Origin: Azolla caroliniana
Lineage: Eukaryota > Plantae > Polypodiophyta
Assembly (NCBI GenBank): GCA_043228905.1
Contig: JBHGNT010000001.1
Coordinates: forward strand, 29,760,001-29,824,000
Direction: 5' to 3'
Length of the DNA: 64,000 bases
Position 1 is the first letter of the stretch; every line of letters starts with the position of its first letter. A program made the translations under genes and the position numbers. The notes under the pieces were generated by a model. The model saw only the letters and a list, made by a program, of their open reading frames with translations, was not told the DNA's origin and did no database searches. Below, one piece after another: positions 9,834 through 37,651 of the stretch.

Positions 9834-12594
9834 TCATAAACATTTAAACTTTATGGATAGTGAAGTTTCCCAGATAAATAATATAAGCTCCATACTAAAG
9901 ATTGCCTCAAGTTAACAGAAAAGAAAATTTAATTGCAATGAAACAATACCTTAATACACAACATTCTGAACAGAAAGCAGAAAAAGTATTTGTACATATG
10001 TAGGAGGTAACTAAAGGAGTTGAATAAAAAAGTGTATTTCATATGAAGTAGCGCACATTGTTGAAAACCTAAGTATTCTCTTCTCCCAGGTTTATTTTGA
10101 TGACCCACCAGGAAAAGGAAGCTAACCAGCTTCAAAAAGGTATTTTCTGGACCTGTCCTCTGGGATGCAACAGAATTAATCTGCACTTCCAACTGTTGAC
10201 AAGAAAAAAGAGACCACGTTAGTTTTGAACAGGCTCAATATTTTGCCCAAAAAGAAGAGAAGAAAAGGCAGTGTAATCAGCCATATGTTGGTTAAAAAAT
10301 AACATGGAACAAGGACTGACTCCTAAGAAAACCAACAAAAGAGGTTGAACTTTACCACGTGTATCACATTAAAATAGAAAACGCGGTCTAACATATTAGA
10401 TTATCTACCCAAAACATTAATTTAGGCTTTTGAATAAATTTCAATGATCACACGAAGACTCCTTTTGTTACAATGTTTCAAGGAAGAGCCGTGGATTTTA
10501 GAAAGTACTGGGTTAAGTGTGATAAAATGATTCTTTCATTAAGAGATTCGGGTAGCATTACCTTAAATGTGATATGAACATTCTTTAAATCCTCATATGA
10601 TACATAATCTGAACACTCTTTAACCTGAAGGTAAGTGTATCCTAACTATATCTTAAGGTTTACATCATTACAAAAATATAGAAAAAAACGTAAAAAAGAG
10701 CTATAATTGTATCACTTCTAAATAGTTCCAATTCAACAATTAACTAGGAAAGAGAAAAAAACGTGAGGAAATACATCAATATCTAGAGGAATATCAAAGA
10801 TGTTATGTTCATGAATGAGCATGGGACATATTTTTGAGTGTTTGCTAGGTCTAGCTAGACAAATCTTTACAGGATCCAAGTTTCTGTTGTGCATCAACAG
10901 GTCTGTGTATCATGGTCACATCCTTGATCTCATTTTTACATCATATCATAATCTTGGCCCAGGGAATAAAGAGTGATTGCAAACTATACAAAAGAAACGC
11001 CGCAGCAATGGCAAAAGTGGTAGTCAAACAAACTTCAAAACTATTAGAAAAACTTCGCTGCTGAAGAACTGCTGAAGAACGGCCAGTCCCTGCAGGAATT
11101 GACTGTTTTGTCCTACAAATAAAAAAACTTAAATTCTACAAAATAGCCATATGCAACACACAGAACATTGGCAGGACCCAAGCATCAAAGACAGAACAAG
11201 GTGTATCTTTAAAACCTATACAAACCCGTATAGTTTGAAACTCCCCTCCATATAAGCTCACATCCCCATCACATCATTCTCAATTCCAATTTAAAACTGT
11301 GACTTGCATCCATGACAAAATGGAGAAAAGGAAAGTTCGCATAAATTGCGGCCATCCACACAACCCTTCAGCCTCACTTTTTCTCAATCTGGTGTCAAAC
11401 TACATTCCTCCCTCACATTGACGTTAAATAAAACTTTTAAACCTAGCCTCAGCTTCCAGCAACAGATTGATTGTTTAAACAGTGTAAATATGTGCTTTCT
11501 AAAAAGGAATCAAGATTACATCTCCTAGGCACTATTCAACTTCATAACTAATATCTAAAATCTAAGAAATAAATGAAGGTTTTTCATATAAAGATGGAGC
11601 CAGTTTAGTTGAGTCAAGGTTGGGTTACTAATCATGCTTACTCAATAGTGGCAACAAACGAAACACTCCAACACCCACATACATAATGCTGCCGAAATGC
11701 ACACAGAAAGTTTTAGAACACCCAAACTTTGTAAGCAACAACTCTCTAAGAGATAATATATCGTTTACGAATTGCTGGTTTGAACATTATTAAAATTAAG
11801 AAAAGACGAACTCATATACTGTCAAAAAACATCTCACGCTCCTATTCTATTCAACCATTTATATGGTTGTTTTCAAAGGTTTTTACATGATTTCTTTCGC
11901 ATTGTCAATTAACCCTCTCTCACTTTCTAAATAGTTTCTGAATGCTACGCTTGTAAGGAAAATGCGAACGTAATATGTCACTCTTGTGCATAATGTCTTG
12001 TTCATGTGGCGATCGAGGCCAACGTTGAGAGAAAATATCCCAGGAACTGTCGATTAAGCTCCTCACCTATATTCGTAATATAACACAACACCAACCATTT
12101 TCTTCTTTATGACCACATGAAACGAGCTGCAAATTTTATGTGAAGTTAAAATCGAAGCGTATAACTGAATCAAAATACAGAATGTATTTAACTTAAACCT
12201 AAGAATGTTTCCTTCCATTTTTCACTTTGAGGGAGAAAACAAGAATGATTTCCCGTATATCAAACACAATCTGAACAAGAAATCACCTTTATTGACGAAA
12301 GAACATAAGCTTATTTGAAAGAAGATGAAGAAAGATAGGACTTTTAGGCTAAAAAAAGAACACGTGAAAAGAACGAGAGAACGGGATACGCAGAAACGAA
12401 ATGATAATGCAGTTTAAAGAGGCTCCATGAATTTGATGCTTTAAAGGAGACGGGATCGAGGACGAACAGAAACAGGTAAACATACATTGGTTCGAAGCGA
12501 TTCGTGAGCGCGAGCATGAAACAAGAGCAGGAAACAGACCGAGAGAGAGAGAGACAGAGAGGGAGAGGGAGAGAAGGATTCTCTGTGTACTGAC

Positions 12595-12700
12595 CTTGAC
12601 GTTGACGTGTGTGTCGGGAGGGATGAAGAAAGCGATGGTTCTGCAGAAGACCGCAGAGCTGGAAATCGCGAGGGAGGGACCAGATTCGAAGAACCCTAAC
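12595..12700 (-). promoter_or_regulatory. Putative non-coding first exon and core promoter (telo-box-like AACCCTAA) of the ESP1-like gene
   Basis: GC-richer, ATG-free segment ending in the donor CAAG|GTCAGT (12595/12594), followed by a CT-rich intron start. aaccctaac lies at ~12692. It is conserved in the paralogous copy upstream of PAC2. Confidence 0.6.
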
Positions 12701-12820
12701 TGTGTATGTATATGTATGTATCATGTATGTATATATGTATGTATATATGTATGTATGTATGTATATGTATGTATGTGTGTGTGTATGTATGTATATGTGT
12801 GTATGTATGTATAATGTATG
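12701..12820. repeat. (TATG/TGTG)n microsatellite; insertion target of the MULE, continuing at 20366-20404
   Basis: Direct reading of tgtatgtatatgtatg... on both flanks of the element. Confidence 0.9.
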
Positions 12821-13160
12821 CTCGTTGCTATCCTGCACCAAATCATAAAGAGGGCTGGTGAGGGAATCACGGCCACAGACGGTGCAGGTCGCCTAGAGGA
12901 AGGTGCGTGCGATCTGCACCGTCAGATTTCGATAAGGAAGAGCGCGCGAAAAAAAAAGTTGTCAGAGGTCACCCAACTCTGAGTCGATGGTCACCCAACC
13001 CTGTCAGAGGTCACCCAACTCTGAGTCGTTGGTCGCCCAACCGAAATTGGTCACCCAACTATGACTGTTGCAAGTTGCCCAACCGTTTTAGGTCACCCAA
13101 CCCTGACAGTTACAGGTTGCCCAACCGATTGGTCTCCCAACCGTTGCAGGTCGCCCAACC
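12821..13160 (+). repeat. Left TIR plus subterminal GGTC(A/G/T)CCCAAC motif cluster
   Basis: About 160 bp of inverted match to the right end, then roughly nine ggtcacccaac-type motifs at 12967-13160. Confidence 0.9.
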
Positions 13161-13211
13161 AAATGTATCATTCCAACCAAAATCTTCAAATAAGCTTGTT
13201 AATTACCCTTA

Positions 13212-13490
13212 AAACTTACAATAACATATCAAATAGTCACAAAATTCAACCTTAAAATACTTAAAACCGACGATCTTTACCATACTTATGTTAAAACAAA
13301 TAATCATATTAAAACATAAAAGTTGAAAGTTAAAAAACATTTAAAACATAAAACGAAGAATGTAAACTTACAATAACATATCAAATAGTCACAAAATTCA
13401 ACCTTAAATTACTTAAAACCGACGATCTTTACCATACTTCTGTTAAAACAAATAATCCTGGCAAAACATAAAAGTTGAAAGTTACCAAAC
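13212..13490. repeat. Two-copy ~152-bp direct repeat 3' of the transposase stop
   Basis: aaacttacaataacatatcaaatagtcacaaaattcaaccttaaa...cttaaaaccgacgatctttaccatactt occurs at ~13212 and ~13364. Confidence 0.9.
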
Positions 13491-13492
13491 AT

Positions 13493-15157
13493 TTATGGCT
13501 CATCCGGAGATGATGGCAAGATGCGACCACAATTCTTGCAACAATCAACATTTGAGTCCCTTGATCTAAAGGTCAAGGCATCGCAATGCAAGCATCGCAT
13601 TTTATCTGTCGCACATATTGGCAACCGCCTCCTAGCTCGACTTGCGCCTCTTTGCATTTTTCCTGTGTGTGCCTTGGAAGTGTTTGGGGAGCTGCCAATA
13701 AGATCTTGTGAAATGTTGATTGATGCTCCCCTTTTTGCACCAATTGCTTGCTTACGCCCTATGGATCCACGGTCTTCTTCGTTAGTTGGTTTCGGTGCAC
13801 CTGTGTGATACACCAATGTCTCACTTGTTTCTTGAATGGACTCCATACATGCCAAAATTGTTGCACAATCGAGGGATTGTAACCCTTGCTTAAAACATTG
13901 AATAGCCCCCTCAAGCGTTTGTAATTTCGACAAACATTCCTCCACTCGTGATGTTATAGGGTTTGTCTCCTCGACTGGTTCTACCTCTGTCTCCATTTCC
14001 GTCTCTGTGAAATGGTCATTGCGCATATAGGTTGCATGATCTATAAAAGGCAATGACCCACATAGATGTGGCATGTGCCTCTCAATAATCATCCTGATGC
14101 CAAGTATATGCTTACATTTACTCGCAGGGTCGTGGCAATCACAATATGAACATTGGAGCGATACATTATACCATACATCCGGTTTTGTCAAGCTCAATAT
14201 TTTAAACCAATATCGAGGCTCGTCCACAATATGCATTGTCGCATTATTAGTTTCATACCTCTCTAGTAGCCTTTCGGCCTCTTTAAGTCTAGTTGTTTGA
14301 TCCCTACAATTTGCACGTGGTGCAAATCTACCACTCTCACATATTTCTTGTCGTTGCTTGTACCATTCAATAACAGTACCCCCGATGCAAGTGCCAGTTT
14401 GACTGTCCCCGATTAAAACATGCACAAGATCGGTAATTGATCGGTTTATCCTCCCTCTTAAGGCAGTATATTTGATAAACTGCCAATGTCTCTCCACAAG
14501 ATTGGTAGTGTCAACATGTCCGTAGTTGAACATTCTACCAAATTTGGGCCACAGTTTCCTCCACACACATGTCAAGCCACACCATCCTCCTTCTATATAT
14601 TGCCAAACACCTGGCTTGTTTGCATATTCTACCTTTAAGTCCTCACATTGGGCATTGAATGTGGATTCCGTAATGCATTGCATGAGTTGGCACATCCGAT
14701 TATAAAGGTGGTTTCTCTCACTTGCACTTACCTTTGGCAACAAGTTGTCCAACCATGCTTTTTTTGCATGGAAGTGACACAACAAAAGTCGACAATGTGT
14801 TTGCGACCTTTGCCCATTTGTAACTATCCAAGATAATCGGTCTGTTGCAACCACATTACTTATGGCATTATACGATGTCCAACTTTTATCGATGACTATG
14901 GCATTTGGCCTCACATTGGGCATCCGTGCAAATATGACTCTCAAGCAAGTTTCTAAAGCTACTTGCTCATGGTTAGACCCCTTATCAGAACTACATATCA
15001 TGTACCATAATGGGATACCAACTCCCATGGCATTTGGAGCCACAACTGCATATAATGGCAAGCCAAATTGGTTTGTTTTAAACGTGGAGTCGATTGCCCA
15101 AGAGTTGTTTATCGACAGTCGCTCACACATCTCTAACATCCATTCATCTTGGAGCAC
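13493..15157 (-). CDS. MULE/MuDR-family DDE transposase with SWIM zinc finger and C-terminal Cys cluster; N-terminus out of frame with the upstream ORF
   Basis: WAIDSTFKTNQFGLPLYAVV (D1), AIVIDKSW (D2), LLLCHFHAKKAW (CxxH), TTNLVERHWQFIK (E), CDCHDPASKCKH (SWIM), CLHC...CKNC. Confidence 0.9.
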   Translation of the reverse strand: MLQDEWMLEMCERLSINNSWAIDSTFKTNQFGLPLYAVVAPNAMGVGIPLWYMICSSDKGSNHEQVALETCLRVIFARMPNVRPNAIVIDKSWTSYNAISNVVATDRLSWIVTNGQRSQTHCRLLLCHFHAKKAWLDNLLPKVSASERNHLYNRMCQLMQCITESTFNAQCEDLKVEYANKPGVWQYIEGGWCGLTCVWRKLWPKFGRMFNYGHVDTTNLVERHWQFIKYTALRGRINRSITDLVHVLIGDSQTGTCIGGTVIEWYKQRQEICESGRFAPRANCRDQTTRLKEAERLLERYETNNATMHIVDEPRYWFKILSLTKPDVWYNVSLQCSYCDCHDPASKCKHILGIRMIIERHMPHLCGSLPFIDHATYMRNDHFTETEMETEVEPVEETNPITSRVEECLSKLQTLEGAIQCFKQGLQSLDCATILACMESIQETSETLVYHTGAPKPTNEEDRGSIGRKQAIGAKRGASINISQDLIGSSPNTSKAHTGKMQRGASRARRRLPICATDKMRCLHCDALTFRSRDSNVDCCKNCGRILPSSPDEP

Positions 15158-15837
15158 CTCAATTGAACATCTATCAACGTATCATCAACCCTATGTGCCT
15201 CTATCTTGATCACTTCTATGGGTCTAGACTTTTTATATTTCACGACACTTGTCCCCTCCATGTCAGATGGAGTTAACCTCGACACAACTTGACAACCGCA
15301 TTGGTCAATCACTGCTTTCACATACGCACTAGGGATCCCATAGTCACGAAGGTCATTGGACCAATTTCTCTTTAATTCTGTCAGAGTACCTGTCAAAGAA
15401 CGGTGCGATGCGCCACAATGTGACGCCAATACTATCTCCCTCCATTTCTCTACGTGCGTAATCTGAAGATGAGGCGATGCCTTAAGGTGTATTGCATTCT
15501 CATTCATAAGCGTGAGACGACTCTTCATGCGCCTCCATGCATGTAAATTAAGAGGTGCCCCCCTTGCGAGTGTGCTTAATATTTCAAATGTTACCGTAAC
15601 TTGACCTAATAAATCTTTAAGCATTAAATCGTACATACCTCTAGTGAACGCAATATACCTCGCCGAACAATACATGAAGGGATCAACCTCCTCCGCCTCT
15701 TCTTCGGATGAAGCCGACTCATAGTCTTCGGATGTAGACGAATCCAAGTCATCGTCGATGGTTGCGGAGTATGGTGATGCATAACCATCCTCAGAATCAT
15801 ACAAGGACGTGATTAAATCTATTTCGTTGGGATTCAT
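15133..15837 (-). CDS. Probable N-terminal part of the transposase gene: acidic N-terminus plus integrase-type H2C2 zinc-binding-like motif
   Basis: ATG-initiated 234-aa ORF overlapping the transposase ORF by 25 nt in another frame. Contains EIVLASHCGASHRSLTGTLTELKRNW...IPSAYVKAVIDQCGCQ. Confidence 0.6.
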   Translation of the reverse strand: MNPNEIDLITSLYDSEDGYASPYSATIDDDLDSSTSEDYESASSEEEAEEVDPFMYCSARYIAFTRGMYDLMLKDLLGQVTVTFEILSTLARGAPLNLHAWRRMKSRLTLMNENAIHLKASPHLQITHVEKWREIVLASHCGASHRSLTGTLTELKRNWSNDLRDYGIPSAYVKAVIDQCGCQVVSRLTPSDMEGTSVVKYKKSRPIEVIKIEAHRVDDTLIDVQLRCSKMNGC

Positions 15838-15844
15838 CTCGAAT

Positions 15845-16325
15845 GAATCTAACTAATCTGATTAAGAATCTAACTAATCTGGTTATAAGAATCTAACTAA
15901 TCTGATTATAACTGATTAAGAATCCCCCTAATATGATTAAGACTCTAACTAATCTTATTAAGAATCTAACTAATGTGATTAAGAATCCCCCTAATCTGAT
16001 TAAGAATCTAACTAATCTTATTAAGAATCTACAAAATCTGATTATAACTGATTAAGAATCTAACTAAGATGATTAAGAATCTAACTAAGATGATTAAGAA
16101 TCTAACTAATCTTATTAAGAATCCCCCTAATCTGATTAAGAATCTAACTAATCTTATTAAGAATCTACAAAATCTGATTATAACTGATTAAGAATCTAAC
16201 TAAGATGATTAAGAATCTAACTAATTTGATTAAGAATCCCCCTAATCTGATTAAGAATCTAACTAATCTTATTAAGAATCTAACTAATCTGATTATAACT
16301 GATTAAGAATATAACTAATCCTGAT
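15845..16325. repeat. ~21-bp minisatellite (aatctaactaatctgattaag variants) directly upstream of the transposase ATG
   Basis: About 20 reiterated units, with recurring variants (aatccccctaatctgattaag; ctgattataactgattaag). Confidence 0.95.
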
Positions 16326-16613
16326 TAGCTTTTAGAGATTGTGCAAAATAAGAATGTGATTAAGACGCAGAATGTGATTATAAGACAGATATTGGAGATG
16401 CAATGAGCTATGATTAAAATGACAGAGAATGGTTTAAAGTGACAGAGAATGTGATTAATTTACATGTTAAGATGACCGTTTTTCTGGCCGTTTACATAAC
16501 AGGTTGGGCGACCTGGTTGGGTGACCAAAACAAAAGATAATTAATTTTAAAAGGTTTGGGCAACCTGGTTGGGTGACCAAAACAAAAGATAATTAATTTT
16601 AAAAGGTTTGGGC

Positions 16614-17113
16614 AATACCACAACTTGCGATTGGTTTAAAACCATACATTCAGAACATCCACAATAATTGTTGGGAACAACATTTCCATTAACAAGTAAT
16701 CGCGTTTACAATACCACAACTTGCGATTGGTTTAAAACCATACATTCAGAACATCCACAATAATTGTTTGGAACAACATTTCCATTAACAAGTAATCGCG
16801 TTTACAATACCACAACTTGCGATTGGTTTAAAACCATACATTCAGAACATCCACAATAATTGTTGGGAACAACATTTCCATTAACAAGTAATCGCGTTTA
16901 CAATACCACAACTTGCGATTGGTTTAAAACCATACATTCAGAACATCCACAATAATTGTTGGGAACAACATTTCCATTAACAAGTAATCGCGTTTACAAT
17001 ACCACAACTTGCGATTGGTTTAAAACCATACATTCAGATCATCCACAATATTCAGATTGAGATAAATAATTGTTGTAAACAACATTTCCATTAATAAGTA
17101 ATCGCGATATACA
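16614..17113. repeat. 96-bp tandem repeat, 5 copies, 3' of the Ulp1-like gene
   Basis: The unit aataccacaacttgcgattggtttaaaaccatacattcagaac...aagtaatcgcgtttac starts at 16614, 16710, 16806, 16902 and 16998; the fifth copy has an insertion. Confidence 0.95.
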
Positions 17114-17214
17114 ATGAGTCGATTCTCACTATACAAAATTTTTGGGGATTCCAAAATATAGTTACAACATCAGCTCTATAGCCAAATCTGTGCTGAAAAC
17201 AACATTCCCAAAAT

Positions 17215-19216
17215 TTACAATATGGAGCCACCGGTCGCAGGTGCAAATCCTAATACCGATCGTGCCCACTCGTCCACATGAATCCGAAGTGAATCCACTT
17301 CGCGTTTGGTGAACCACATCTCTGTGCCCTGTAACCAAATATGTATAAGAACACATCTATACACAATCCACATGAACAAGGAATTGCAATTACACTTACA
17401 AAAGTCGAAGATATCCATCCTTGTAAGAACTCCCTCACCAACATTTGGATAGTCTTCATCACATAAAAGCCACAATCCCAACAATTTGGCTGTGTTGGGA
17501 TGTGCAGTACCTGATGTCGACCATTGGGCACAATGGTGTGGTCTGACGGTTCAGATGAAATTGTCCGAATCGCCAACTCTGCCATTCTCCGCATGTTGTC
17601 TGTTGCTGGTCTGTTCAATGGATCGCAGAAGACTACTTTGCTAGTTAGCTTAGAAGCTTGTTGTCGCATGGTGAACCACAAGTTCCAATGCCCATCAAGC
17701 ACGATCGGAATGAACGTAATCTCACATTGCGCAACTTTCTTAAGGATGTCTTGCTCCTTCATTGCCTGCTGGTGTAGCTGCACCCATAGTGGGTCGACGA
17801 TGGTGAAGCGTTCTGTCACCTCGAGTGGCAATGAGTATTCCATCCACAACGTGAATAAGGTCATAGTCCATGTCGATGCCATTTCACGGCTCTTGCATAT
17901 GGTCTCAAGATCTGACTCGGTAACATCAAGGGCCATATCGAGACGTGGGCAAGTTAGCTGGTACCTGAATGCATGGAAATATGTAGTTTTGAGTAGGTAA
18001 ATCACACTCCATGTCAATTAGTAAGATACTAGTTTGTATTTCACTTAAACCCTACCTGGAAAAGTGTTTATTTGGGGTTTGAATCCATAACCTTATGCCC
18101 TTGCCATGTTGAATTTGAACTATGGCCACATCCGATGCAGCGTCATCTGAATCTGATGTTAGGGAAACAACATCAGTGTTTGACTCGACCTCCTTCCGTC
18201 GGATTGGCATTTTCGGTCGTCTCCGTCTCGGTGGAGTGGACACACCACCCTCAGATGGGTTTTGACTCTCATCCACATCCGTGGACACACCCTGCGGTTG
18301 GGTGGATATCCCCGCCTTTTTACACTGTTTCACCACAATAAGACACATCTTATTATCTGAATTTTGCCAATAAACCCTCCAACAATCTGAAATGAAATCC
18401 TCACTCATACTTACATAAGAATCCAAACCAGCTGCTATCTTCTTCGTCAACATCTCCAAACGCTCATCCTTATTGGAGTCGTATATAGTCATCTCTTTGT
18501 CCATAAATCGTGCCACGAACTCTGCCTGTGTGTCAAGACGGAGTTCAGCAGGAATAGAGTTGTATTTCGAAACAACCCTAACCTTCAACTTTCGGATATA
18601 TTTTTGTCGATTTCTGTAGTACTTGATTTCCGGGTCCATGAATCTTTTGAGTGATCTTTGACGCTCATAACTGTTAAAGCATGCCCCCGGAATACCCTCC
18701 TCCTCCTCTATACGCATCCCTCGTGGTAGGACTACGTCTATTGCATGTTCTCTGCGTAAATGTGACTCCATGTCACTTTTTTTCCGATACCACCTTGGCG
18801 AGAGGCGGCAAAACTCAGTGTAGATACATGCACGAGCCTTGTTCCCATTTGCATCTCTTCCAACCTTATACAACAAGTCGGGACAAGGAGCAACTGTTCC
18901 TTCTGCACCTGTGTTACATATTTAAGATTGACATAAAGATTGGCATAAAGATTGAGATATTGCAACGACACCAAATCCACATACCATTTGGAGGAGCATC
19001 TTGGTCCATTTTGTCCCCACTCGTACACATGTCGGCTCCTCGACTTCGCCAATGTCTTCTAACGAAGACCCTTTAACAAATCACGAGTCAACATACATGC
19101 ATCAAACCCTAAACCATTCTTGGGGGAGATTGGTTCGTGACATACCTCTCTTGAGTTGGATATATATCACTGTTATCGAAATCCCACCAATCTTTGTACT
19201 TGGAGTTGGAAGTCAT
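17215..19216 (-). CDS. Transposon-borne six-exon gene: C2H2-like zinc finger and helical/basic region fused to a Ulp1/C48 (SUMO-protease-like) domain
   Basis: Phase-consistent GT-AG splicing: MTSNSKYKDWWDF...QER|VFVRRHW...APPN|GAEGTVAPCPDLLYKVGRD...ACIYTEFC...MESHLRREH...GLDSY|CKKAG...KHFS|RYQLTCPR...FIPIVLDGHWNLWF...VFCDPL...QPNCWDCGFYVMK...SSTF|GTEMWFTKREVDSLR...GSIL*. The H/D/Q/C catalytic set is intact. Confidence 0.8.
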
Positions 19217-19834
19217 CTACCACCATTCAAGTAATCAAACATTTTTTGATTTTAGTACTCAAACACACAAAATATCAAGTTTAAGCAAGCAAATCATTAA
19301 AACCAACAATCAAAATATAGATGATTAAATCAAGTTTAAGCAAGCAAATCTAGTGAACGCAAGATCATAATAAGTTTGATAGGCCTCACCTATAGTGTGG
19401 ATAAGAGTGGTTACATCCTCTTCTAGATTATGCCTTCAAGATACTGGCTGGGATTAGAGTGGCTGGAAATCAACAAAGCCTTGCCTATTAGATCCTATTA
19501 TACTTCACTTATGGTTCGCTTATCTTCTTGTCTATAGTGACTCTAAACCCTAAAGCTTAAACATGTCTATGCATCAATATGGTCCATACAATCTTGCTTG
19601 TTTTCATTATTATTAAGAAGCGATGAATATAACATTGTGGAAGATATAATAACAAGGAGCATACCTGGGAATAGTGATGGAGGAGATCGATTTGTGATGG
19701 AGGAGATCGATTTGTGCAGCCACAGACGATTTGTGATGGAGGAGCTCCCACCTCTTTCCCGGCAAACCCAACCTGTCAATCTCGTTTGAAAAAATGACAG
19801 ATTATGACAGGTTTAGGGCTTTTATAGACATCCC

Positions 19835-20365
19835 TAAAGGAGTCTCCCAACCTGGATAAACAGGTCTCCCAACTGTTTTAAAAATCAACAGTTGGGTGAC
19901 CTGCTTCTTTTATTGAGTTTGTTGGGTGACCAACTCAATATAAACTCTAAAGGAGTCTCCCAACCTGGATAAACAGGTCGCCCAACTGTTTTTAAAATCA
20001 ACAGTTGGGTGACCTGCTTCTTTTATTGAGTTGGTTGGGTGACCAACTCAATATAAACTCTAAAGGAGTCTCCCAACCTGGTTAAACAGGTCACCCAACC
20101 TATTTAAAAATAAACAGTTGGGTGACCTGCTTTTTTTTTTGAGTTGGTTGGGTGACCAAATCAACCAAAAATTTAAAAAAAAAATGGTTGGGAGACCTCT
20201 GACAGGGTTGGGCGACCGCCTGCGCAGCTTTTTTTTTGGCGCCTTCTTCCTCATCCAAATCGGACGGTGCAGATCACACGCGCCTTCTCTGAGCGACCTG
20301 CACCGTCTGTGGCCGCGATTCCCTCACCAGGCCTCTTTATGATTTGTGTCATAATAGACACGTCG
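19835..20365 (-). repeat. Right subterminal 113-bp tandem repeats (about 2.7 copies, motif-rich) and right TIR
   Basis: The unit taaaggagtctcccaacctgg...gttgggtgaccaactcaatataaactc starts at 19835, 19948 and 20061; TIR ~20200-20365. Confidence 0.9.
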
Positions 20366-20874
20366 ATAATGTATGTATGTATGTATAATGTATGTATGTA
20401 TGTACATAGAAGATATTATAGAATCATATATCATATACTATCAAAACATGAAAGCATTACTACCCATATGTATATCCAATTGTGTTGGAATCCCCGATAT
20501 CGTAAAAATTTGAACAATGTCTCCAACTCGTCATTTAGACCATTTTGAACATACTAAGGGAAAAATACCCATTGTTGAGGCCTCAAATAACAATGGGTTA
20601 AAACTTGTCGAATATCTAATAAGTGCTTCCAAATGATATGTGCTATAGGACGTTTACTGAGCCTATGTGTATTGTCCTCCAACGAAATGGTGCAAACGAA
20701 GCACTTACTTCACCCTAGTCCTCGTCTCTTTTAAGGTTGAACCTAATGGTAGCCCACTAATCATGACTTGACTCTCCCCGTATGATTACCTTTGCATGAA
20801 ATGAAAAATGGGAATGCAAACCACATTGCAATATGGTGATAACCCAATATATTGATGCCATTGCATGGTGATAC

Positions 20875-20919
<45 letters not shown>

Positions 20920-21241
20920 GGTGACCTATAACAAGTGTGTACAATGTTGTAACAACCTATCAACCCAAGGCACAACATTTGTTTCCAATGGCAAAGATTC
21001 ATCCAAGAATGGTATATCTTGTAATTCCTCCCAAATAAATCCATAATTTGGGAGAATACATAACCGTCATTTGGCATCTTCAAATTCCAACAAGCTTTGA
21101 GATTCATTATCAACCACATCTTCCAAATCTACAACCCCCAATCAAAATAAACGATTGAATTGAGATCTCGATTTCTCTTTTCCATGCCAATCCAACACTC
21201 AAGAAGAAACGAGCAATTCATTTTGTAATGAACTACAAAGG

Positions 21242-21297
<56 letters not shown>

Positions 21298-26789: not shown

Positions 26790-26791
26790 TC

Positions 26792-26840
<49 letters not shown>

Positions 26841-27057: not shown

Positions 27058-27384
27058 GGATGATGATGTTCTTGATGAAAAATGTAGCATTCACGTCCCC
27101 TAAAATGATAGAGAAAATGGAAGGTAATACTAACGCCTGCAAAAAGCCACGACTGTCTCCTCAAGAGAGCGAAGCTACAACCATCTTTTTGGTACACCAT
27201 ACATGTTTGAGACAGGAGCTATAGACGAAGAAGAAGAAAGAAAAGAAAAGGAGTTGGTAAAAAAAACAAAACCCAGCGAGGTAAGAAAAGGAAGGTTGGA
27301 CTCCCTTCAGATTCTGCTCGCTTCTTTACAAGACCTTTGTCATTCACAATCACATTTGCTGCTTTTCAAACCTCAGAAAACCAA

Positions 27385-29619
27385 ATGGATGTCTCTCTCT
27401 CTGGAGTATCAATGGAGAAAGCTGCATCTTTGAAGGTCGAGGAAATGGTAAACCTCTTTGAAAAAATGGATGGGAAGCCAAGCCGAGAGGTGCATCAAAT
27501 CTCGATGGACAGGATTGGATCTCCTGCCAACACAGAAGATTCGCGAGCATTGGTATCTATCCCACAATCGAGTATGCTGTCACTTCCATCTCTCTTTTGT
27601 CTAAAGGGGAGCATGCTATCTATCCAACGCAGACATAGCTATACTTAAATTTAGACATTCTTATGCTTGACACTGTCATGGTACTGTGTACATGCTATAC
27701 TGAATATCTATTCAACAACTGATTATGTCATCATTTTGATGTCTGATTTGTCTTAAAGATCATTCTATCCATCTAGCTTAGATGAAGGTATACCTAAATA
27801 CCTACTTATGCTTGACACTGTCACGGTACTAATCAGACACTGTGGTTGAATCTAGAAACTACTGTATTCGATTTCCCGTTTTGATGGAGTGATTGTGTAA
27901 AACTCAATCTTTAATGATGTGAGAGAGGGGTTTCTCCTGAACCATGATGGTTATACTGCTTATGTTTGTGACTGCTTTAGAATAGTAGAATATTGTGCTT
28001 ATGCTTCTGATTGCTTTTAGAACTTGCTTGATTAATTCCTTCATGAGTTTTACATAATTGATAATGGTAATAAATGAACATTAACGAATAAACCTGCACA
28101 TAGACTGGTAATAAACCTTCATGATAAGATGAAGTTCACACTATTAATAGTTTCTTTCCAATACATGGTGATCATAGTTCTAATGCTATGGTTCACATGA
28201 GTGACCAATGTTTGTTCACGCATCTGTAAATATGACATCTACCTTTTGTGCTTGTTTATACCATCCTAACCTACAAGTCCATCGATATAATGCATTTAAA
28301 TCACACAATTTGTTTCCTCTTGTAGCAGACAAGCTTCAAAAAGATTCGGACAAGCGTCAAAGAGATATTGACAAGGTCCAGAGAGATTCTGAGAGGGAAG
28401 GATCTCCATACAATACCTCTATGAGTGGAAGCTCGTTAAACAAAGGTCTCTTTCTCTATCTTTCTCACATTTGCGTGCATGCATTTAGAATGTTTTAATT
28501 CATGCCATCGTTCTAATTTCTAGTAACATGTAATACGAATGGAAAAGATAAAGGTTGGAGGCATATGACAAGTGCCATTAAACACATGCTAGCATTTCTG
28601 TCTATGCCTGGTTTACAATTTATTTAATTGAATGCACAAATGGTTTCTACTTGACAGATGTTGAGATGGCCAAAATAAAAAAAGAAAAGATTCTTTCATT
28701 AATAGAAGCATGGGAAGAAAGCAAGAAAAAGAGGTCCCTTTACAGGTAACCAGTGATTGCCTTTGTCTGAGAGATGAATTATTTCATAATACATGCCTTG
28801 GAAGTTTTACTTTTAAAATTTTCGTTTTTGAAATGGTGTATGATTGTGCATCCTTTGGACATACACACGCTTTTAAGAAGAGACATGATGAATATTGGGT
28901 TACTTCTACCTTTTTTGTGTCGCGTTCACATTGTATTATCTGAATAGCAATTGGGTTCAGTAGAAAAAGGAAAACAAAACGCTTTTATTGGGTTGATTTC
29001 TGTTTTTGGGATGGTTTTTCCTGGAATCATAATTCTTCTAGAGCTGGTGTTCCATCTTATTAGTGAGCTTTTATCCTATGTTGAATTTAATTGACCTTGA
29101 ATATTATCCTTCGAGTACTGTACATGCAAATGATGAGACTAAAAGATTGGGATGAACGTACGTAATATGGAACAGATATAACAAAACAATGGCAAAATTG
29201 GATGCGTGGGAGCTGGGCAAGATAGCAAGGGCGCAAGCAAGTTTGAGAACATTTGAGGTTAATAGATTTGAATTATGCACTCAAATTTTGATTTCTTGGT
29301 CAAAAAGTTGTTTTCTGATGGGATTATGTCTCTATATGGTTGGGGGGAGATGTTTAATGCTAACCCTTCCATTAGCCAGTCCTTGTCATTATGAAAGTTT
29401 TTAAAGTCACTTTGTCAGCAGGAGAGGCTGGAAAACAAACGAGCTACTTGTGTGGAGAAAACCAGTAACAAGATCGCTGTAGTTCAGAAGATTGCAGAGG
29501 AAAAGAGAGCCCTTGCTGAAGCATGCCATGGGCATGAAGTGCTGAAAGTTGAAGAAACCGCAGCCAAATGCCGAGCTTCTGGCCTCCGGCCTGGGAGTAG
29601 TTTTCTCACTTGGCGTTAG
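27385..29619 (+). CDS. Remorin-family protein, 5 coding exons
   Basis: Spliced C-terminus KILSLIEAWEESKKKRSLYR|YNKTMAKLDAWELGKIARAQASLRTFE|QERLENKRATCVEKTSNKIAVVQKIAEEKRALAEA...KVEETAAKCRASG...* matches the Remorin_C coiled-coil pattern. Confidence 0.88.
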
Positions 29620-32065
29620 TTGATTCAATAACCTGGTCCCTTGTCCTGTGGACCTCTTGGAATTTGAGCCCTTGTTTTCTTATTTATTTTGGTTCTTTAC
29701 ATTCATCATGCCTAAGGAGAAAACTCAATTGCCTATCATAGGCACCAATGGGAAACAAAAAAATAAAAGCTGATCAGTCTGAGAATATTGTATTTTCAAT
29801 TATTAATTTTACCCATGATTTTTGTATGTCCCAGAATTTGTTATACATCTAAAGGAAAACTTGTAGTTTGGGAATCTACAGCTTGGAGTTTTCGCAGTTC
29901 CAGTTGCATGCTATTATTTGAAGAAATTTCCTATGTTGCAAATTTCAAAGACATTAGATGAAGTGGTTTGGAGTCTTTTCTTTGCTTCAAGTTACAAAAC
30001 ACATTGCTGATGTTGGCCTTCTGTATGAGAGGATGTGTTAAGCACAAGTAGTTGGTATCTAATTCAAAAGTTGGCATGTTTAAAGTCTTACATGTTACAG
30101 GGTCGTGTGCATTGATGTTGTATATGACTCTAAAAATGTAAAACAATAAGAAAGTAGAATGTTTTTAGATTTGTGTTCAACAAGATCCACTGCCAATCTA
30201 TAGTGGCCATTTCTAAGAACGTTGTGTATCCAAACTGAAATAAGGTAGCATAATCAATGTCAATCTAAATCTAATTTCAAGGTCTGATCATGGGCAGAAA
30301 ATTGAAGAGACGATTTTGTGTTCCTCGTCTCTGCCGTATTTGGCGCTTCAGTTCTGTCTCTTCTTGATAGGCAGGGAGTTCCATTGATTAACGCATACCA
30401 TGATTCTTTCACATACAGGCAGGCAGTAGTGCGGTCCCCACCTCTCTTTTACTCTCTCATCACAAAAAGTAGTAGAGTCCTGACATTCCTTTCAGTAAAA
30501 CATGTTTGGGCAGTCAATTGCCTGCTGTAGTGAAATCGCAGTGGTTCCTGCTGAAAAGTGTAAAACTTACATTCATGAGATGAGAACTTCTGGAAGATAA
30601 GCACGAAAATGTCAAGAAAAATAAACTCCTTCCTTTTGGCAAAAAAATTAAGATCAAGGAAAAATAAAATTCTTTATATTAATATTTTTAATTTGATGGT
30701 GTAATGTATAAAGAGTCTTCTTGCCTACTTATTATTTGCTGCACTAGAGACACATGTAGACATGCAAAGAAGTTTAAAATGTTTAAATCCCACTACACTT
30801 TAGTGTTTCTTTTATTAATCTCAATTGCTTCAGTTTCACTTGGCTTAAGATGCTTTCTTGCGTTCTTTTGGGCTGTAATTATTCACCCATCCTTAACTGC
30901 ATCTTTATAGAATTGCATAGTGAACCAATTTGTTTATTGATAGAATTGCGTACTGAACCAATAAATCAGGCACCTTTCTACAACATGACTTGTAGGTCAA
31001 CAGAGAAATTACCCAGCCATCTAGATGTTACAACAAGACAAATAACAAAGGATCAGCATGAAACCAAATCAAAACCCTAATCCAAATTCAATCATTAATG
31101 TTGACAGCTTCAGATCTGCACTGTCAATGTTTTCAAAGTGTCACCAAATTTTAGTTTCAGTTTTATAAATAACCTATATTGCATGGTTCCAATTAACTCA
31201 TCTTGCCAATTTATGCAGAAATAGAGATAAACCACAATACGTAATGCGAATAGATGGTTCCATATTATCAGGCATTCAAGAACCTTATTTTTGGGGGTTA
31301 TTGGATTGGTATTTGCCTCTGTTATCACTCACTTTATAGAATGTAGGATGATGACTGGATAAAGTTAAGAAATCCATCTACTATAGCATAGACAAGTAAG
31401 AAGAATTTAGATGCCATCATCACATACATCAATATTACCCTCACATATTTACATCTTCGCAGTCACCATCACATGCATGTGGGACCTGCATCAGGTTCCA
31501 AGTCCAACGCTTAAGACGCTTCTAAGTTTCCTTTAACAGAGTTTCAGTAAGATTCATTGAGTTTTCACCTGTCTGCAAAAGTTACCATTACTTGGTTCAA
31601 GCTAGAGAAAGTCAAAAGAATCCTTTCTTTTCTTCCTACTTCAAGAGGAGCATGAGATGATTGTTCTCTCTTCTTTACCTTCAAACATTTCACTATCATA
31701 TGTAGTACTTCCATATACTTACATAGCAAAGATGATGTTCCAGCAATTGATAATAATGTATGAACCTTCCCTCAAAACTTCTAAGGTAGTCGTACAACCA
31801 AAATTGTATAAATTTCATATATATTTTCACTATTAATAATCTCTCAAGAAACATTAGCTCCACAAGTATGTTAAACAGTTCCAGATGAACTCAACAAGCA
31901 TGATAATTGCTAAAGAATAATCATACTCAGGTCTTAAAGGTTTTGTGGGGGGGGGGGGGCGCCCAATCTTAATAAATAACAAAATTGTTATATGCGTATT
32001 TAATAAGCGGCCATCAAGACAACCCATTCTCGCAGTTAAAGATTCATTTTTCCTACTTTGCTTGC

Positions 32066-35000
32066 CTAGTAGAAAATGGCTGGATCAGGTGGAGGACCAA
32101 AAACAGACCTCCATGAATGTGGTACAGCCCATTTAACTGGTACATACCCTACATCACAAGAGGAAATTTTATAAGTTTGAGAAGACTGCATATTAGTCTT
32201 GAGATAGTGTTTGTGCCACTTGTTTTCTATGAGAAGTCATTATATACCATCAGTTTTTGTTCGAGAAAGGAAACTTTGCAGAGCTTCCGCTAGTAGAAAA
32301 GCATCTTGAATGTTATCACCTTCTGAGCAGAAATATAGAATGCATAACACATCCAAGCCTTTAGCCTGGGAATGTAAAGAGATCATCATTTAGTTTTAGC
32401 CTGGATATATGAACACATGGTGAATATCTTCTATTAGCTTATGGGCCTACTCTAGCCTTTAGTAGCACCTAATGACGTTGTACTTTTTTGAAGCCCTTCC
32501 ATTCATATAAAGAATAAAAATACAGTCAAAAGAATAAATACATTATGATCTAAACATTTCATTTGATTTAAGAAACGTAGTATTATAATACCTTGCAGCA
32601 AGAGAACAACGATGCAAATGGTAGACTAGGATAATACATTTCATCAGTTAATTGTATCTCACGTGATTCAAGATCTTCCTCAATCTCACCGCAGGAATAT
32701 GACTCTAACAATTTCCATTCCTGTGTCAAGGGTAGAAACTGCTCCAGTTTTCTCCATCCAAGCCCTTCACATCTTTCATCTGTGCCATCAGGATTGGCCG
32801 TGGAGATGTACCTTATTGGTGAGCTGAAAATCACAGTACAAAAATGGAATTACAAACACAGAAAAAATGAATATTTCTGACAAATTCAGCACCAATAGCC
32901 ATCTTGAAGAATAACTGCATCTCTTCTCTTTACAAAGAAGGAAATTCCGCCTAACTGGAAACTTTAAAAAAAAACATATGTTTGCTGATTGCCACCATAG
33001 GAAAATGGCTAATTCTGCAGCTAGTTACAGAAAACTGTACATGAATCCATCCATACAAATACAAATATATGAAAATTTTAAGGGTAAGAGATACATACCT
33101 TCCAACATCCTGCATAGGGCGCTTGCCTGCATCCACACCTGAAAGTATGATTACTTCTTTTGTATTATTGGTAGTAGTCCATGCAGCGAGGTTTTTTGCA
33201 AATTTCAACATAGTGCCCTGTTTTTCAAAGCAATCTCAGGAGTTACAGAACCAGCATAGTCCAACTCCTAATGCACTAAACACCAATGTGTCCTTAGACA
33301 CAGACAAACAAGCAAACACAAGCTGAATATTTTCTAATGTCAAAATATTTTCTCAAAGGGCATAATCATGCCAGCCTTTACAAAAAACGAGAAGATGGCC
33401 TTTCTGGGGTAGAATATACGCCATTATTTAGAAAGCTTTCCCACATGTGAGGCCATGATTGGATAGTTAAGGATGCACGAAATTCTCGATCAAAATTGAA
33501 CAAAGCAAGAATAACTCCAGCCATGTTTCCAAACACACATATAATTAATTTAATATCTCCATTAGGTGGACATGACATTCTTTTTTCAGCAAGGCATCCA
33601 ACACCGAACTCATGGCAACAAATTAATTTGATCAGGTTCACGATACAAGAAAATATCAAAGTTTAAATTTTAGGTCAAATAAAGGATTTCAAAGCATGGA
33701 TTGTGATGCTCACAAAATCCTCATACACCAGCCAAATTAGCCAGCATATGCATATTCAATTGAAGAACACATGAAATAATAAAGCCATTACCAAACGAAA
33801 ATCCCATATTCAATAATAGCACATTTTGTTCATACCCTCAACAAGAAATAAATGCAAACACAAAGTTGTATATTTTCAAAGACCGCATAATCTCTTTCTC
33901 TTTTGTAAATGTTTGCAAGAGGGAATGGAAGATGAAGCGCCTACCCCCTACATTTGTAGAGTGGTTTCAAAGCTGCATGTGCATCATTAAGAACATGTGG
34001 TTATCAAGGCCTACTCTAGTTGGGAAGTTTCTGTCATCACACCAAGCATAAATCATAGTGATAACTGGGGTTACAGATTTGCATATATAGTTGGAAAAAT
34101 CAAAGACTATAATATAAAAAAAGAAAAAATGGCATACCTTAATTACAGGAGCTCGTTGCTGAATGATCTTCAAATCATTGTTGGCTTCATAGACTGGAGA
34201 CTCAGTTAAGTTAATATAGGATTTATTCTAATCCCTCTCTCTCTGTCTCTCTGTCTCTCTCTCTTTATATTGCATTTTACGGCTTGTTGTTACGTTTAGG
34301 GTTTCCTCTTGCTGCATTTTAGTGGTTTCATTCAGACTGAGTTTTAAAGGTCTTCTCATTCCAATGCAAATTTAAGAATCTTCTCATCCTGAGGTCCAAG
34401 ACAAAATCTAAGGCAAGGATTCTCATTCAAAGGAAAATAAAATATTTTCGCATTCTAGACAAATGAAATTGAATCTCGTAAGTTTTTCTCATTCCAATGC
34501 AAAACCAAAGATTTTTTTCATTCAAAGGCAATATCAAGGAATTTTCTCATTCAAAGAGAAAATGAATGATTTTTCTCATTCTAATGCAAACTCAAAGATT
34601 TCTCACATTAAAATGTAATATCAATGATTGTCTCAGTCTAATGCAATGAGTTTGACATAAACCAAAGAGATAGGAAAAATAGAGTAATAAATATTTACCT
34701 TCGAGAGCAACTGCGAGTTCTCCATTGTTCATATCATGGAAGGGGTCATTCCCAACACAAGGTAAGACGTGAGGGTCATCAAGATAGCCCACTTTTTGTG
34801 ATTTCCAGGATGCAATTATAAGATCCGATGCCAATTGACCTACGTTTCCAATAGAAAGCGCTGGCTGTGTAGAGAAAAAACAAGAACGAAGACTTGAGGT
34901 TTTGGATTTTATAGTTTTTTATTTGCTTTCTAGGGATTATGATCAGGATTGATGCTTAATATTTAAAAACGTTTTCTTGGTTACAGTTAAAGTTAAAATG

Positions 35001-35248
35001 ATCTAGGATTTAGGATTTGTAATTTAGGAAATAGGATTTAGAAGAATAAGCTAGGGTCTAGGATTTTAAAAGGTTTTACACAATGCATGCTTTTTAGGTA
35101 CTGTTTTAAGGTTTAGAAGTTGAGGCTTGATAAATCTTCCATGCTCCAACGTAAATGAGTTCAACTGGCTGCTTACCAGCAAAAGCGTAACAGGGGATGA
35201 TGCTGCCTTTGACTTGCAATCTTCAGCCGAGCAAGGAAAGTACTCCAT
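32066..35248 (-). CDS. PAC2: Proteasome assembly chaperone 2 (PAC2/PSMG2), multi-exon
   Basis: MEYFPC...TLLL|PALSIGNVGQLASDL...VLPCVGNDP...|IIQQRAPVIK|...VIILSGVDA...|SLPFASLFSCCK|...YFCSEGDNIQDAFLLA|...KWAVPHSWRSVFGPPPDPAIFY*. Confidence 0.92.
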
Positions 35249-35543
35249 TATTTCTTGAACGGACGACAGAGCTGCTTTCAGCTTCCGCAATAATCTTTCA
35301 GTAAGTTACAATTGTGAGTTCATGACGGTTTCACAGTTATTGTCCACAGCAACAAGTCGGATGTCCGACGTTAGCCAGCAATTACAAGCCAAGCCATCGA
35401 CACCATCATGCCCAAAATGGAAATGGCTCCATTTCTACACATCATCGAAAAGGACCTTATGTTTATAATCAACCAACCATTATGATATGAGACAAGGCAG
35501 ACAAACTTAATGTCCTCGTCCCCAACAAAATCCTTAAACATTG

Positions 35544-37651
35544 TGTTTTCTCGTACAAATAAAAAAAACTTGAATTCTGCAAAATAGCCATATACAACAC
35601 ACAGAACGGGGCAGGAACCAAGCATCAAAGACAGAACAAGGTGCTCTTTGAAACCTATACAAACCCATATAGCTTGAAACTTCCCTGCATATAAGCTCAC
35701 ATCCCCATCACATCATTCTCGTTTCCAATTTAAAACTGTGATTTGCATCCATGACAAAATGGAGAAAAGGAAAGTTCGCATAAATTGCGGCCATCCACAC
35801 TACTCTTAAGCCTCACTTTTTCTCAATCTGGTGACAAACCGCATTCCTCCCTCACACTGGCGCTTGATAAAACTTTTAAACCTAGCCTCAGCTTCCAGGA
35901 ATAGATTGATTGTTTAAACGGTGCAAATATGTGCTTTCTAAAAAGGGTTCAAGATTACAGCTGCAAAAATACAATCCATCTCCTAGGTACCATTCAACTT
36001 CATAACTAATATCTAAAGTCTAAAAATAAAATAAAGGCTTTTCATATAAAGATGGAGCCAGTTTAGTTGAGTCAAGGTTGGGTTACTAATCACGATTACT
36101 CAATAGTGGCAACAAATGAAACACTCCAACACCCACATACATAATGCTGCCAAAATGCACACAGAAAGTTTTAGAACACCCAAACTTTGTTAACAACAAC
36201 TCTTTAAGAGATAATATATAGTTTACGAAGTGCTAATTTGAACATTATTAAAATTAAGAAAAGATGAATTCATATACTGTCGAAAAACATCTCACACTCC
36301 TATTCTAATCAACCATTTATATGGTTGTTTTCAAAGGTTTTTACGTGATTTCTTTCACATTGTCAATTAACCCTCTTTCTTTTTCTAAATAGTTTCTAAA
36401 TGTTATGCTTGTAAGGAAGTTTTGAACGTAATATGTCACTCTTGGGCATAATGTATTGTTCAAATGTACTCCAGAAACTGTCTATTAAGCTCCTCAACTA
36501 TATTCATGATATAACACAACACCAACCATTTTCTTCTTTATGACCACATGAAACAAGTTGCAAATTTTATGTGAAGTTAAACTGAACCAAAATACAGAAT
36601 GTATTTAACTTAAACCTAAGAATGTTTCCTTCCATTTTTCACTATGAAGGAGAAAAGAAGAATGAATTATCTGAACAAGAAATCACCTTTATTGAAGAAA
36701 GAACATAAGTTTCTTTGAAACAAGATGATGAAAGATGGGTATTTTAGGCTAAAAAGAACACGTGAAAAGCACGAGAGAACAGGATACGCAGAAACGAAAT
36801 GATGCACAATGAATGAAATTTAATATTTTAAAGGAGACGGGATCGAGAACGAACAGAAACAGGTATATATACATTGGTTGAAGCGATCCGTGAGGGCGAG
36901 CATGAACAAGAGCAGGAAACAGACCGACAGAGAGAGGGAAACAAGGATTCTCTGCGTACTGACCTTGACGTTGACGTGTGTGTCGGGAGGAGTGAAGGCG
37001 GTGGTGGTGCAGAAGAGGGCAGAGCTGGAAATCGCGCCGAACCCTAACATATATCTGTGTGTATGTGTGTGTGTGTGTGTGTGTGTATGTACATAGAAGA
37101 TGATGGAGTTATAGAATCATATATCATATACTATCAAAACATGAAAGCATTACACTACCATATGTGTATATCCAATTGTGTTGCAATCCCCGTTATCGTA
37201 AAAATTTGAACAATGTCTCCAACTCGTCATTTAGAACATTTTGAACATCTAAGGAAAATATACCCATTGTTGAGGCCTCGAATAACAATGGGTTAAAACT
37301 TGCCGAATATCTTATAAGTGCTTCCAAATGATATGTGCTATAGGACGTTTAATGAGTCTATGTGTATTGTCCTCCAACAAAATGGTGCAAAAGAAGCGCT
37401 ACTTGACCCTAGTCCTTGTCTCTTTAAGATTGAACCTAATGGTAGTCAACCAATCATGACTCAACTCTCCGGAGTCCGTATGATTACCTTTGGATGAAAT
37501 GAGAAATGGGAATGCAAACCACATTGCAATACAATGATAAACCAAGATATTGATGTCATTGCATGGTGATACAATATATATTGTAGTGACCTATAACAAG
37601 CATGTACCATCCCGTAACCGCCTATCCACCCAAGGCACAACATTTGTTTCC
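35544..37651. repeat. Segmental duplication copy B, uninterrupted; contains the putative PAC2 promoter, first non-coding exon (~37045-36964) and part of intron 1
   Basis: Collinear with 11104-12820 plus 20366-20986, with the same donor CAAG|GTCAGT at 36964/36963. Confidence 0.95.

What the first reader, a model, noticed from the sequence alone, without database searches (positions are those of the whole stretch)
11104..37651. Two unrelated genes share one duplicated promoter, first exon and intron
A ~2.1-kb block occurs twice in the same orientation: upstream of the ESP1-like CDS (11104-12820 plus 20366-20986) and upstream of the PAC2 CDS (35544-37651). It holds no coding sequence of either gene, only upstream DNA, a telo-box-like motif, an ATG-free first exon with a conserved CAAG|GTCAGT donor and ~1.4 kb of intron. 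Homology ends inside the intron, in copy A just before a candidate acceptor at ~11091. Inference: one gene acquired the other's entire 5' regulatory module (promoter capture), which could co-regulate them or go with loss of an ancestral 5' end such as an RRM exon.
Basis: partly seen in the sequence, partly recalled or inferred. Interest (0 to 1): 0.7.

Follow-up and report, generated by a model that had tools for sequence, protein, structure and literature searches.

The report
Plant gene borrows neighbour's first exon
In a land plant, likely a fern, the proteasome-chaperone gene PAC2 is spliced from a copy of the non-coding first exon of the nearby RNA-processing gene ESP1; the 2.1-kb copy likely replaced PAC2's own promoter, which makes this a clean new case of a known kind of promoter capture.

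Summary
The duplication is real: 35544-37651 matches 11104-12820 plus 20366-20986 at about 92% of aligned letters, and a later 7.5-kb Mutator element splits copy A. Public-run contigs show both copies in use. Exon B is spliced to PAC2 at 35434 in two studies. Exon A is spliced to an ESP1 leader exon at 10192, not 11091, and a relative's contig joins that exon to the ESP1 coding sequence. ESP1 is the donor: a relative's DNA carries the block once, at ESP1, and its PAC2-side contigs stop matching at copy B's two ends. PAC2's remaining leader has five upstream ATGs and a weak acceptor, as expected of newly exonised DNA; ESP1's leader has none. Corrections: the distal 0.56 kb looks like a dispersed repeat, exon 1 plus the intron start has a few further copies, and no RRM loss is involved. 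The likely route is tandem duplication then deletion; one-step templated repair fits almost as well. Co-regulation is untested. Promoter capture of this kind is known (LRRC37, Drosophila chimeras), so this is a new member of a known kind.

The parts
6402..8645 (-). ESP1-like (RRM-less CstF64-like) coding region, first ATG at 8645
   Evidence: Pfam CSTF2_hinge and CSTF_C; ATG and stop; joints in X20
10069..10192 (-). ESP1 non-coding exon 2, the real partner of exon A; donor at 10069 seen in a relative only
   Evidence: X8 loose end at the donor equals window 10163-10192; X20 contig covers 10067-10194 and joins to 8683
11104..12594 (-). Copy A: duplicated part of ESP1 intron 1 (whole intron 10193-12594)
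   Evidence: X2 and X13 DNA contigs run through 11104 into ESP1
11773..12066 (-). Possible alternative or terminal exon inside intron 1, seen in one relative only; its AG is kept in both copies
   Evidence: X20 contig of 346 letters, depth 53 against 6-8 nearby, with exon-1 letters as loose end at 12068; AG in A and B
12595..12699 (-). Copy A: ESP1 non-coding exon 1 with telo-like core at 12692; 5' end not mapped
   Evidence: copy-A letters (12629-12658) on an X8 contig at this exon
12821..20365 (-). Mutator-like element (MULE transposase, Ulp1 protease) inserted into the TATG microsatellite of copy A, absent from copy B
   Evidence: PF10551 and PF02902; inverted ends 12839-13000 / 20186-20346, 84% alike; 10-base direct repeat at 12811-12820 and 20366-20375, within a microsatellite
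20366..20986 (-). Copy A: distal upstream part, likely a dispersed repeat, now 7.5 kb from ESP1 exon 1
   Evidence: repeat nature seen on the B copy
32300..35248 (-). PAC2 coding region, ATG at 35248, normal-length N-terminus; 3' end not mapped
   Evidence: PF09754; five GT-AG joints within it in X6 and X8; 24 residues before the PALSIG motif against a median of 20 in 108 of 120 homologues
35177..35434 (-). PAC2 exon 2: 186 letters of leader with five upstream ATGs, then the first 24 codons; acceptor at 35434 likely recruited de novo
   Evidence: X6 and X8 contigs; uATGs at 35432, 35409, 35406, 35397, 35323; pyrimidine fraction 0.57 before the AG
35544..36963 (-). Copy B: duplicated ESP1 intron, now most of PAC2 intron 1 (35435-36963, 1529 letters)
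   Evidence: joint 35434-36964 with GT-AG ends in X6 and X8; second, 92%-alike X2 DNA contig starting at 11104
36964..37047 (-). Copy B: captured non-coding exon 1, now PAC2's 5'-most shown exon, with telo-like core at 37040
   Evidence: one 871-letter X6 contig spans 37045 to 32656 with no differences in its listed pieces
37090..37651 (-). Copy B: distal upstream part, likely a dispersed repeat
   Evidence: X13 summed depth 1732 at 37228-37451 against about 16 on flanks, with piles of loose ends

Best explanation
PAC2 transcripts are spliced from a copy of ESP1's non-coding first exon, and the 2.1-kb copy likely replaced PAC2's own promoter after this lineage split from related species. Shown: both copies exist; exon B joins PAC2 at 35434; exon A joins the ESP1 leader exon at 10192; a relative has the block only at ESP1. 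Inferred: the copied donor had lost its ESP1 acceptor, so it paired with a chance AG 186 letters upstream of the PAC2 ATG, turning former upstream DNA into leader with three short upstream reading frames that would tend to lower translation. Route, inferred at about 0.5: a tandem duplication of 11104-35543 put ESP1's 5' end in front of a PAC2 copy, and a later deletion removed the spare remorin, the native PAC2 copy and its promoter up to about 37657. A Mutator element then jumped into copy A. The confidence figure is for the capture and its direction, not for the route.
For: Joint 35434-36964 with GT-AG ends in X6 and X8, two studies; no shown contig of either continues unspliced from 35434. 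An X8 loose end at the donor equals 10163-10192, and a loose end 33 letters away equals copy-A letters 12629-12658. X20 has one 1614-letter contig: exon-1-like letters, 10194-10067, then the coding exon. X13 DNA covers ESP1 through 11104 to 12671 at single depth; its PAC2 contig matches to 35543 then has 88 unlike letters, its next contig has 367 unlike letters before 37657, and depth is zero at 35660-37003. A-B mismatch is 7.8% against about 10% for A to relatives F and H. X2 DNA holds both contexts; the B-like contig has 1309 unlike letters before 11104, which is the distance from 35543 to the CT repeat at 34235. ESP1 leader: 0 ATG in 260 letters (shuffle mean 3.8, P 0.019); PAC2 exon-2 leader: 5 in 186 (mean 3.6). 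Both junctions lack inverted ends or a target duplication; 4 shared letters lie at the left junction.
Against: Contigs cannot show a start site, so 'promoter' is inferred from the 5'-most exon. The four RNA runs are labelled RNA by guess. X6, the run that matches the window almost letter for letter, gave no contig on the ESP1 5' end, so use of exon A in the Mutator-bearing haplotype is not shown. Absence of copy B rests on one DNA run of one relative; X18 left PAC2's 5' exons uncovered. PAC2's ancestral leader was not seen, so it may already have had an upstream exon spliced to 35434. No remnant of the supposed deleted segment lies at the right junction (best hit E 0.35), so nothing favours two steps beyond orientation and the safe path it offers. 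Identity is flat across exon and intron (4.7-10.3% per 150 letters): no sign of selection on the copy. Only 6 of 22 listed runs were laid and the tables were cut.
Confidence: 0.8

Rival explanations
1. Same capture and direction, but in one step: a double-strand break just upstream of PAC2 was repaired by copying 2.1 kb from the ESP1 locus 15-24 kb away, with loss of the native upstream DNA.
For: Donor is close on the same chromosome; 4 shared letters at the left junction and about 5 unassigned letters at the right; no remnant of a larger duplication. Cis bias and microhomology are marks of gap-filling in PMC8277862 (passages).
Against: PAC2 would have had to work at once from a cryptic acceptor with no spare copy; direct orientation is required by the tandem route but only half expected here.
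Confidence: 0.35
2. A transposon (Helitron or Pack-type element) carried the block, the distal repeat being its end, and has spread the exon-1 cassette to several loci.
For: The distal part looks highly repeated in X13; X2 shows raised depth (64-133 against 36) and unlike loose ends over 12050-12674.
Against: No inverted ends or target duplication around copy B; ancestral DNA was replaced, not just interrupted; 11220-12049 shows only two contigs' worth of depth; the Mutator element is absent from B, so it came later.
Confidence: 0.08
3. Reverse direction: the block is PAC2's old 5' end and ESP1 captured it, perhaps losing an RRM exon.
For: Sequence symmetry alone allows it; relative F could have lost copy B.
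Against: Relatives F, G and H all have the block or its exon in ESP1 context; F has other DNA at exactly B's place; ESP1's leader is ATG-free and PAC2's is not; no RRM hit in the frames scanned.
Confidence: 0.04
4. Assembly artefact, or a silent duplicate that neither gene uses.
For: No long reads were available; no listed contig spans a whole copy with both flanks.
Against: Copies differ by 8% with many indels; a DNA run from another study holds both contexts; spliced contigs use exon B.
Confidence: 0.01

Closest known systems
LRRC37 promoters Cl3 and Cl8, duplicated from DND1 and BPTF (PMC3371713; passages read)
   Same: A promoter region of an unrelated gene is duplicated in front of another gene, is transcribed there, and is single-copy in outgroups.
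   Different: There the copies are about 0.7 kb, come with segmental duplication of a gene family, one from another chromosome, and add alternative promoters. Here the donor is a near neighbour, 1.4 kb of intron came along, a new acceptor was needed, and the native upstream DNA appears to be gone.
Chimeric genes from tandem duplication in Drosophila yakuba (PMC5460883; abstract and section 7 read)
   Same: A tandem duplication joins one gene's 5' end to another gene's 3' part across an intervening gene; duplication followed by deletion is described; 24 of 76 chimeras changed expression.
   Different: Those are young population variants with parental genes intact. Here the chimera is about 8% diverged, is shared by at least two labelled organisms, and no native PAC2 5' end was seen.
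Cucumber CsACS1G at the F locus (PMC7072070; passages read)
   Same: Plant tandem duplication (30.2 kb) gives a gene new upstream DNA from a neighbour.
   Different: CsACS1G keeps its own proximal promoter and gains only distal DNA made of BCAT exons and introns in reverse; the original gene remains.
Pack-TIR / Pack-MULE capture by gap filling (PMC8277862; passages read)
   Same: Local template, short microhomology, chimeric transcripts with neighbours.
   Different: Copy B has no inverted ends or target duplication; the Mutator element here sits inside the donor and postdates the copy.
CstF-77 intronic polyadenylation feedback (PMC3708835; abstract and outline only)
   Same: A 3'-end factor gene with a large early intron; here one relative shows an exon-like contig inside ESP1 intron 1.
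   Different: No poly(A) tail, feedback or conservation was shown here; seen in 1 of 4 RNA-labelled runs.

Membership tests
Promoter / first-exon capture by duplication | Non-coding 5' region of one gene duplicated in front of an unrelated gene | tested here: met
Promoter / first-exon capture by duplication | Recipient transcripts use the copied exon | tested here: met
   joint 35434-36964 in X6 and X8
Promoter / first-exon capture by duplication | Donor still uses the original | tested here: met
   X8 and X18 loose ends, X20 contig; not shown for the Mutator-bearing haplotype
Promoter / first-exon capture by duplication | Outgroup has one copy, at the donor | tested here: met
   X13; one DNA run of one relative
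Promoter / first-exon capture by duplication | Transcription starts in the copy | not testable with these tools
   contigs cannot show starts (tool note)
Promoter / first-exon capture by duplication | Recipient's expression pattern changed or tracks the donor | not testable with these tools
   no raw reads or tissue series were available
Pack-TIR / Pack-MULE | Captured DNA flanked by terminal inverted repeats and a target duplication | tested here: not met
   no inverted pair brackets 35544-37651; best bracketing pair is 13 letters at 85%
High-copy dispersed repeat | Many copies along the whole block | tested here: not met
   two contigs' depth on 11220-12049 in X2, one in X13; met only for the distal part and weakly for 12050-12674
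ESP1-like (partial CstF64) | Hinge and C-terminal domains without RRM | tested here: met
   class described in PMC3538716; clade membership against the Arabidopsis gene was not tested
Mutator-like element (12821-20365) | MULE transposase, inverted ends, 9-11-base target duplication | tested here: met
   the target repeat lies in a microsatellite, so it is weak; the 9-11 range is recalled
Intronic-polyadenylation feedback element | Poly(A) site in the intron whose use responds to the factor's level | tested here: inconclusive
   exon-like contig in X20 ends at adaptor letters, no tail; an AATAAT lies 18 letters before that end in A and is kept in B

The most novel reading that the evidence does not exclude
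The copied intron carries ESP1's own feedback switch (an alternative acceptor at 12066 and a premature 3' end near 11773, both motifs kept in copy B), so PAC2 and hence proteasome assembly would now answer to the cell's 3'-end-processing activity; and the exon-1 cassette, which has further copies in the genome, may have been handed to still other genes as a portable first exon.
Probability: 0.12. Interest if true: 0.7.

Novelty: new member of a known kind. Interest (0 to 1): 0.4.

Why it matters
It is a dated, polarised natural promoter swap between two housekeeping genes, with close relatives on both sides of the event, so one can ask directly how interchangeable housekeeping promoters are and whether a gene tolerates a new leader with upstream ATGs. 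The recipient seems to have lost its native promoter, which goes a step beyond the LRRC37 and cucumber cases. A specialist would find it neat rather than very surprising; no phenotype or expression change is shown.

Tried and rejected
No whole genome is held, so copy number was judged only from contigs. Rfam on 8000-42500 gave 10 matches, all far below their gathering scores and mostly on microsatellites or Mutator repeats: no RNA gene in the block. Pfam on 117 short frames gave only sub-cut-off, low-complexity hits: no RRM or coding remnant. The acceptor at ~11091 was rejected (pyrimidine fraction 0.43, no shown joint). A sliding comparison found no conserved island in the block. The run search listed no holder on record as RNA. 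Uncovered parts prove nothing: X6 on the ESP1 5' end, X18 on PAC2 exons 34699-35434, X6 and X8 on the B equivalent of the alternative exon. Earlier-findings look-ups by place and by two sequences returned nothing; by words, only unrelated notes. Nine literature searches listed no paper on this locus; the library lacks most subscription journals and no supplements were read.
Full report
Observation. Self-BLAST of the window finds two long direct matches, 11104-12670 to 35544-37036 and 20370-20986 to 37060-37651. Aligned letters are 92% alike with many indels; over 11104-12700 there are 115 mismatches in 1483 pairs. No third copy lies in the window. The 7.5 kb that splits copy A encodes a MULE transposase and a Ulp1 protease, has inverted ends and a 10-base direct repeat in the TATG microsatellite; it is absent from copy B, so it is likely younger than the duplication. 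The gene downstream of copy A has CSTF2_hinge and CSTF_C domains and no RRM hit; the gene downstream of copy B is PAC2. The best named PAC2 homologue is from the fern Adiantum capillus-veneris, 75% over 55 residues, so the organism is likely a fern; no genome is held.

Use of the copies. The run search listed 22 runs, none on record as RNA; I laid 6 of them, all as contigs, and the output tables were cut. On the PAC2 side, X6 and X8 (RNA by guess, two studies) both show a joint from 36964 to 35434 that skips 1529 letters with GT-AG ends, and one 871-letter X6 contig runs from 37045 to 32656 with no differences in its listed pieces. So exon B is PAC2's 5'-most shown exon. X8 also has a loose end at the same donor whose letters equal window 10163-10192 and a loose end at 36997 equal to copy-A letters 12629-12658: exon A is spliced to an acceptor at 10192, not ~11091. 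X20, a more distant relative, has one 1614-letter contig with exon-1-like letters, then 10194-10067, then the ESP1 coding exon from 8683. Against this: X6 gave no contig on the ESP1 5' end, so exon-A use is not shown for the haplotype with the Mutator element about 120 letters upstream of it.

Direction. X13 (DNA, organism F) covers ESP1 from 7901 to 10526 and from 10534 through 11104 to 12671 at one contig's depth. At PAC2 its contig matches to 35543 and then has 88 unlike letters; the next contig has 367 unlike letters before 37657; depth is zero over 35660-37003. F therefore has the block once, at ESP1, and other DNA where copy B lies. Organisms G and H also show the exon in ESP1 context. 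A and B differ by 7.8%, less than the roughly 10% between A and F or H, which fits a duplication after those splits. ESP1's 260-letter leader has no ATG (shuffle mean 3.8, P 0.019), while the 186 leader letters of PAC2 exon 2 have five (mean 3.6), and the new acceptor has a pyrimidine fraction of 0.57, at the low end of the used acceptors scored (0.57-0.86). PAC2's N-terminus is of normal length. The limit is that loss of B in F cannot be excluded from one run, and PAC2's ancestral leader was not seen.

Assembly and copy number. X2 (DNA, another study) has an 11,485-letter contig through ESP1 and copy A at 98.7% and a second contig that starts matching at 11104 at 92%, with 1309 unlike letters before it, the distance from 35543 to a CT repeat. 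Summed depth doubles from 18 to about 36 over 11220-12049. The tool warns that depth is no copy number, so these are hints. Two parts are not two-copy: 12050-12547 reaches 64-133 in X2 with loose ends that match nothing in the window, and 37228-37451 reaches 1732 against 16 in X13 with piles of loose ends. The 'upstream DNA' is thus likely a dispersed repeat, and the functional shared module is likely the core promoter, exon 1 and intron.

Mechanism. A tandem duplication of 11104-35543 would create exactly the junction seen at 35543/35544 in direct orientation, and would leave a native PAC2 copy working while the chimera found an acceptor; a later deletion to about 37657 would remove the spare remorin, native PAC2 and its promoter. 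One-step templated repair gives the same end state. Four shared letters at the left junction, no inverted ends or target duplication and no remnant at the right junction do not separate the two. I put them at about 0.5 and 0.35, transposon carriage at 0.08. Identity is flat along the block, so there is no sign of selection on the copy beyond its continued use.

RRM idea. RRM-less CstF64-like genes occur in higher plants and Selaginella (PMC3538716, passages); relative H has the same ATG-free leader joined straight to the hinge-bearing coding exons. The duplication did not cause an RRM loss.

Comparison with known cases. LRRC37 gained promoters duplicated from DND1 and BPTF (PMC3371713, passages). 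Tandem duplications in Drosophila yakuba make 5'-3' chimeras that often change expression, including duplication followed by deletion (PMC5460883, abstract and section 7). Cucumber CsACS1G gained distal upstream DNA from BCAT by a 30.2-kb tandem duplication (PMC7072070, passages). Gap-filling with cis bias and microhomology is described for Pack-TIRs (PMC8277862, passages). Nine searches listed nothing on this locus; supplements were not read. This is a new member of a known kind; its distinctive point is the apparent full replacement of the recipient's promoter.

Most novel reading. In X20 exon 1 is also joined to an AG at 12068 inside intron 1, giving a 346-letter contig at depth 53 against 6-8 nearby that ends at 11773 in adaptor letters. 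The AG and an AATAAT 18 letters before that end are kept in both copies. Human CstF-77 limits itself by intronic polyadenylation (PMC3708835, abstract only), so this could be a feedback element that PAC2 inherited. It was seen in 1 of 4 RNA-labelled runs, shows no poly(A) tail, and X6 and X8 had no cover on the B equivalent; I give it 0.12.

Verdict. Observation confirmed; capture supported with ESP1 as donor (0.8); co-regulation untested; RRM loss rejected; interest 0.4.

Noticed in passing
window 11773-12066 (-): Exon-like contig inside ESP1 intron 1 in run X20, spliced from exon 1; may be an alternative or prematurely ending isoform of a 3'-end factor gene.
   Followed up: partly
window 12050-12674: Run X2 shows raised depth and loose ends with a related purine-rich motif on both sides, suggesting a few further copies of exon 1 plus the intron start in another sequence context; not seen in X13.
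   Followed up: partly
window 8160-8554: Contigs 81-89% alike to ESP1 coding exons in X6 and X13, and matching loose ends in X20, point to a second ESP1 paralogue.
   Followed up: no
window 12821-20365: Mutator-like element carrying a Ulp1 protease and a further unassigned frame (18052-18921), with internal tandem arrays at 15845-16320, 16613-17115 and 19834-20177; the transposase frame is split near 15133-15181.
   Followed up: partly
window 22000-24700 (-): Broken frames that read like a LINE reverse-transcriptase region (recalled likeness; the one frame scanned had no Pfam hit).
   Followed up: no
window 37896-42000 (-): Spliced gene with no Pfam hit in its 177-codon last frame; its transcript contigs end only about 250 letters from the distal end of copy B.
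   Followed up: partly
window 33472-33800 and 34969-35143: PAC2 intron stretches of 327 and 173 letters that run X13 skips, so insertions here or deletions there.
   Followed up: no
window 9922-9955: A 34-letter piece matches a very deep contig (depth about 460-510) in both DNA runs, perhaps an organelle or repeat fragment.
   Followed up: no
window 1773-3849 (-), 27050-29620 (+), 49000-52000 (+), 54610-63900 (-): Neighbouring genes: tetraspanin, remorin, a thioredoxin-domain protein and a BIG/Sec7 exchange factor.
   Followed up: no
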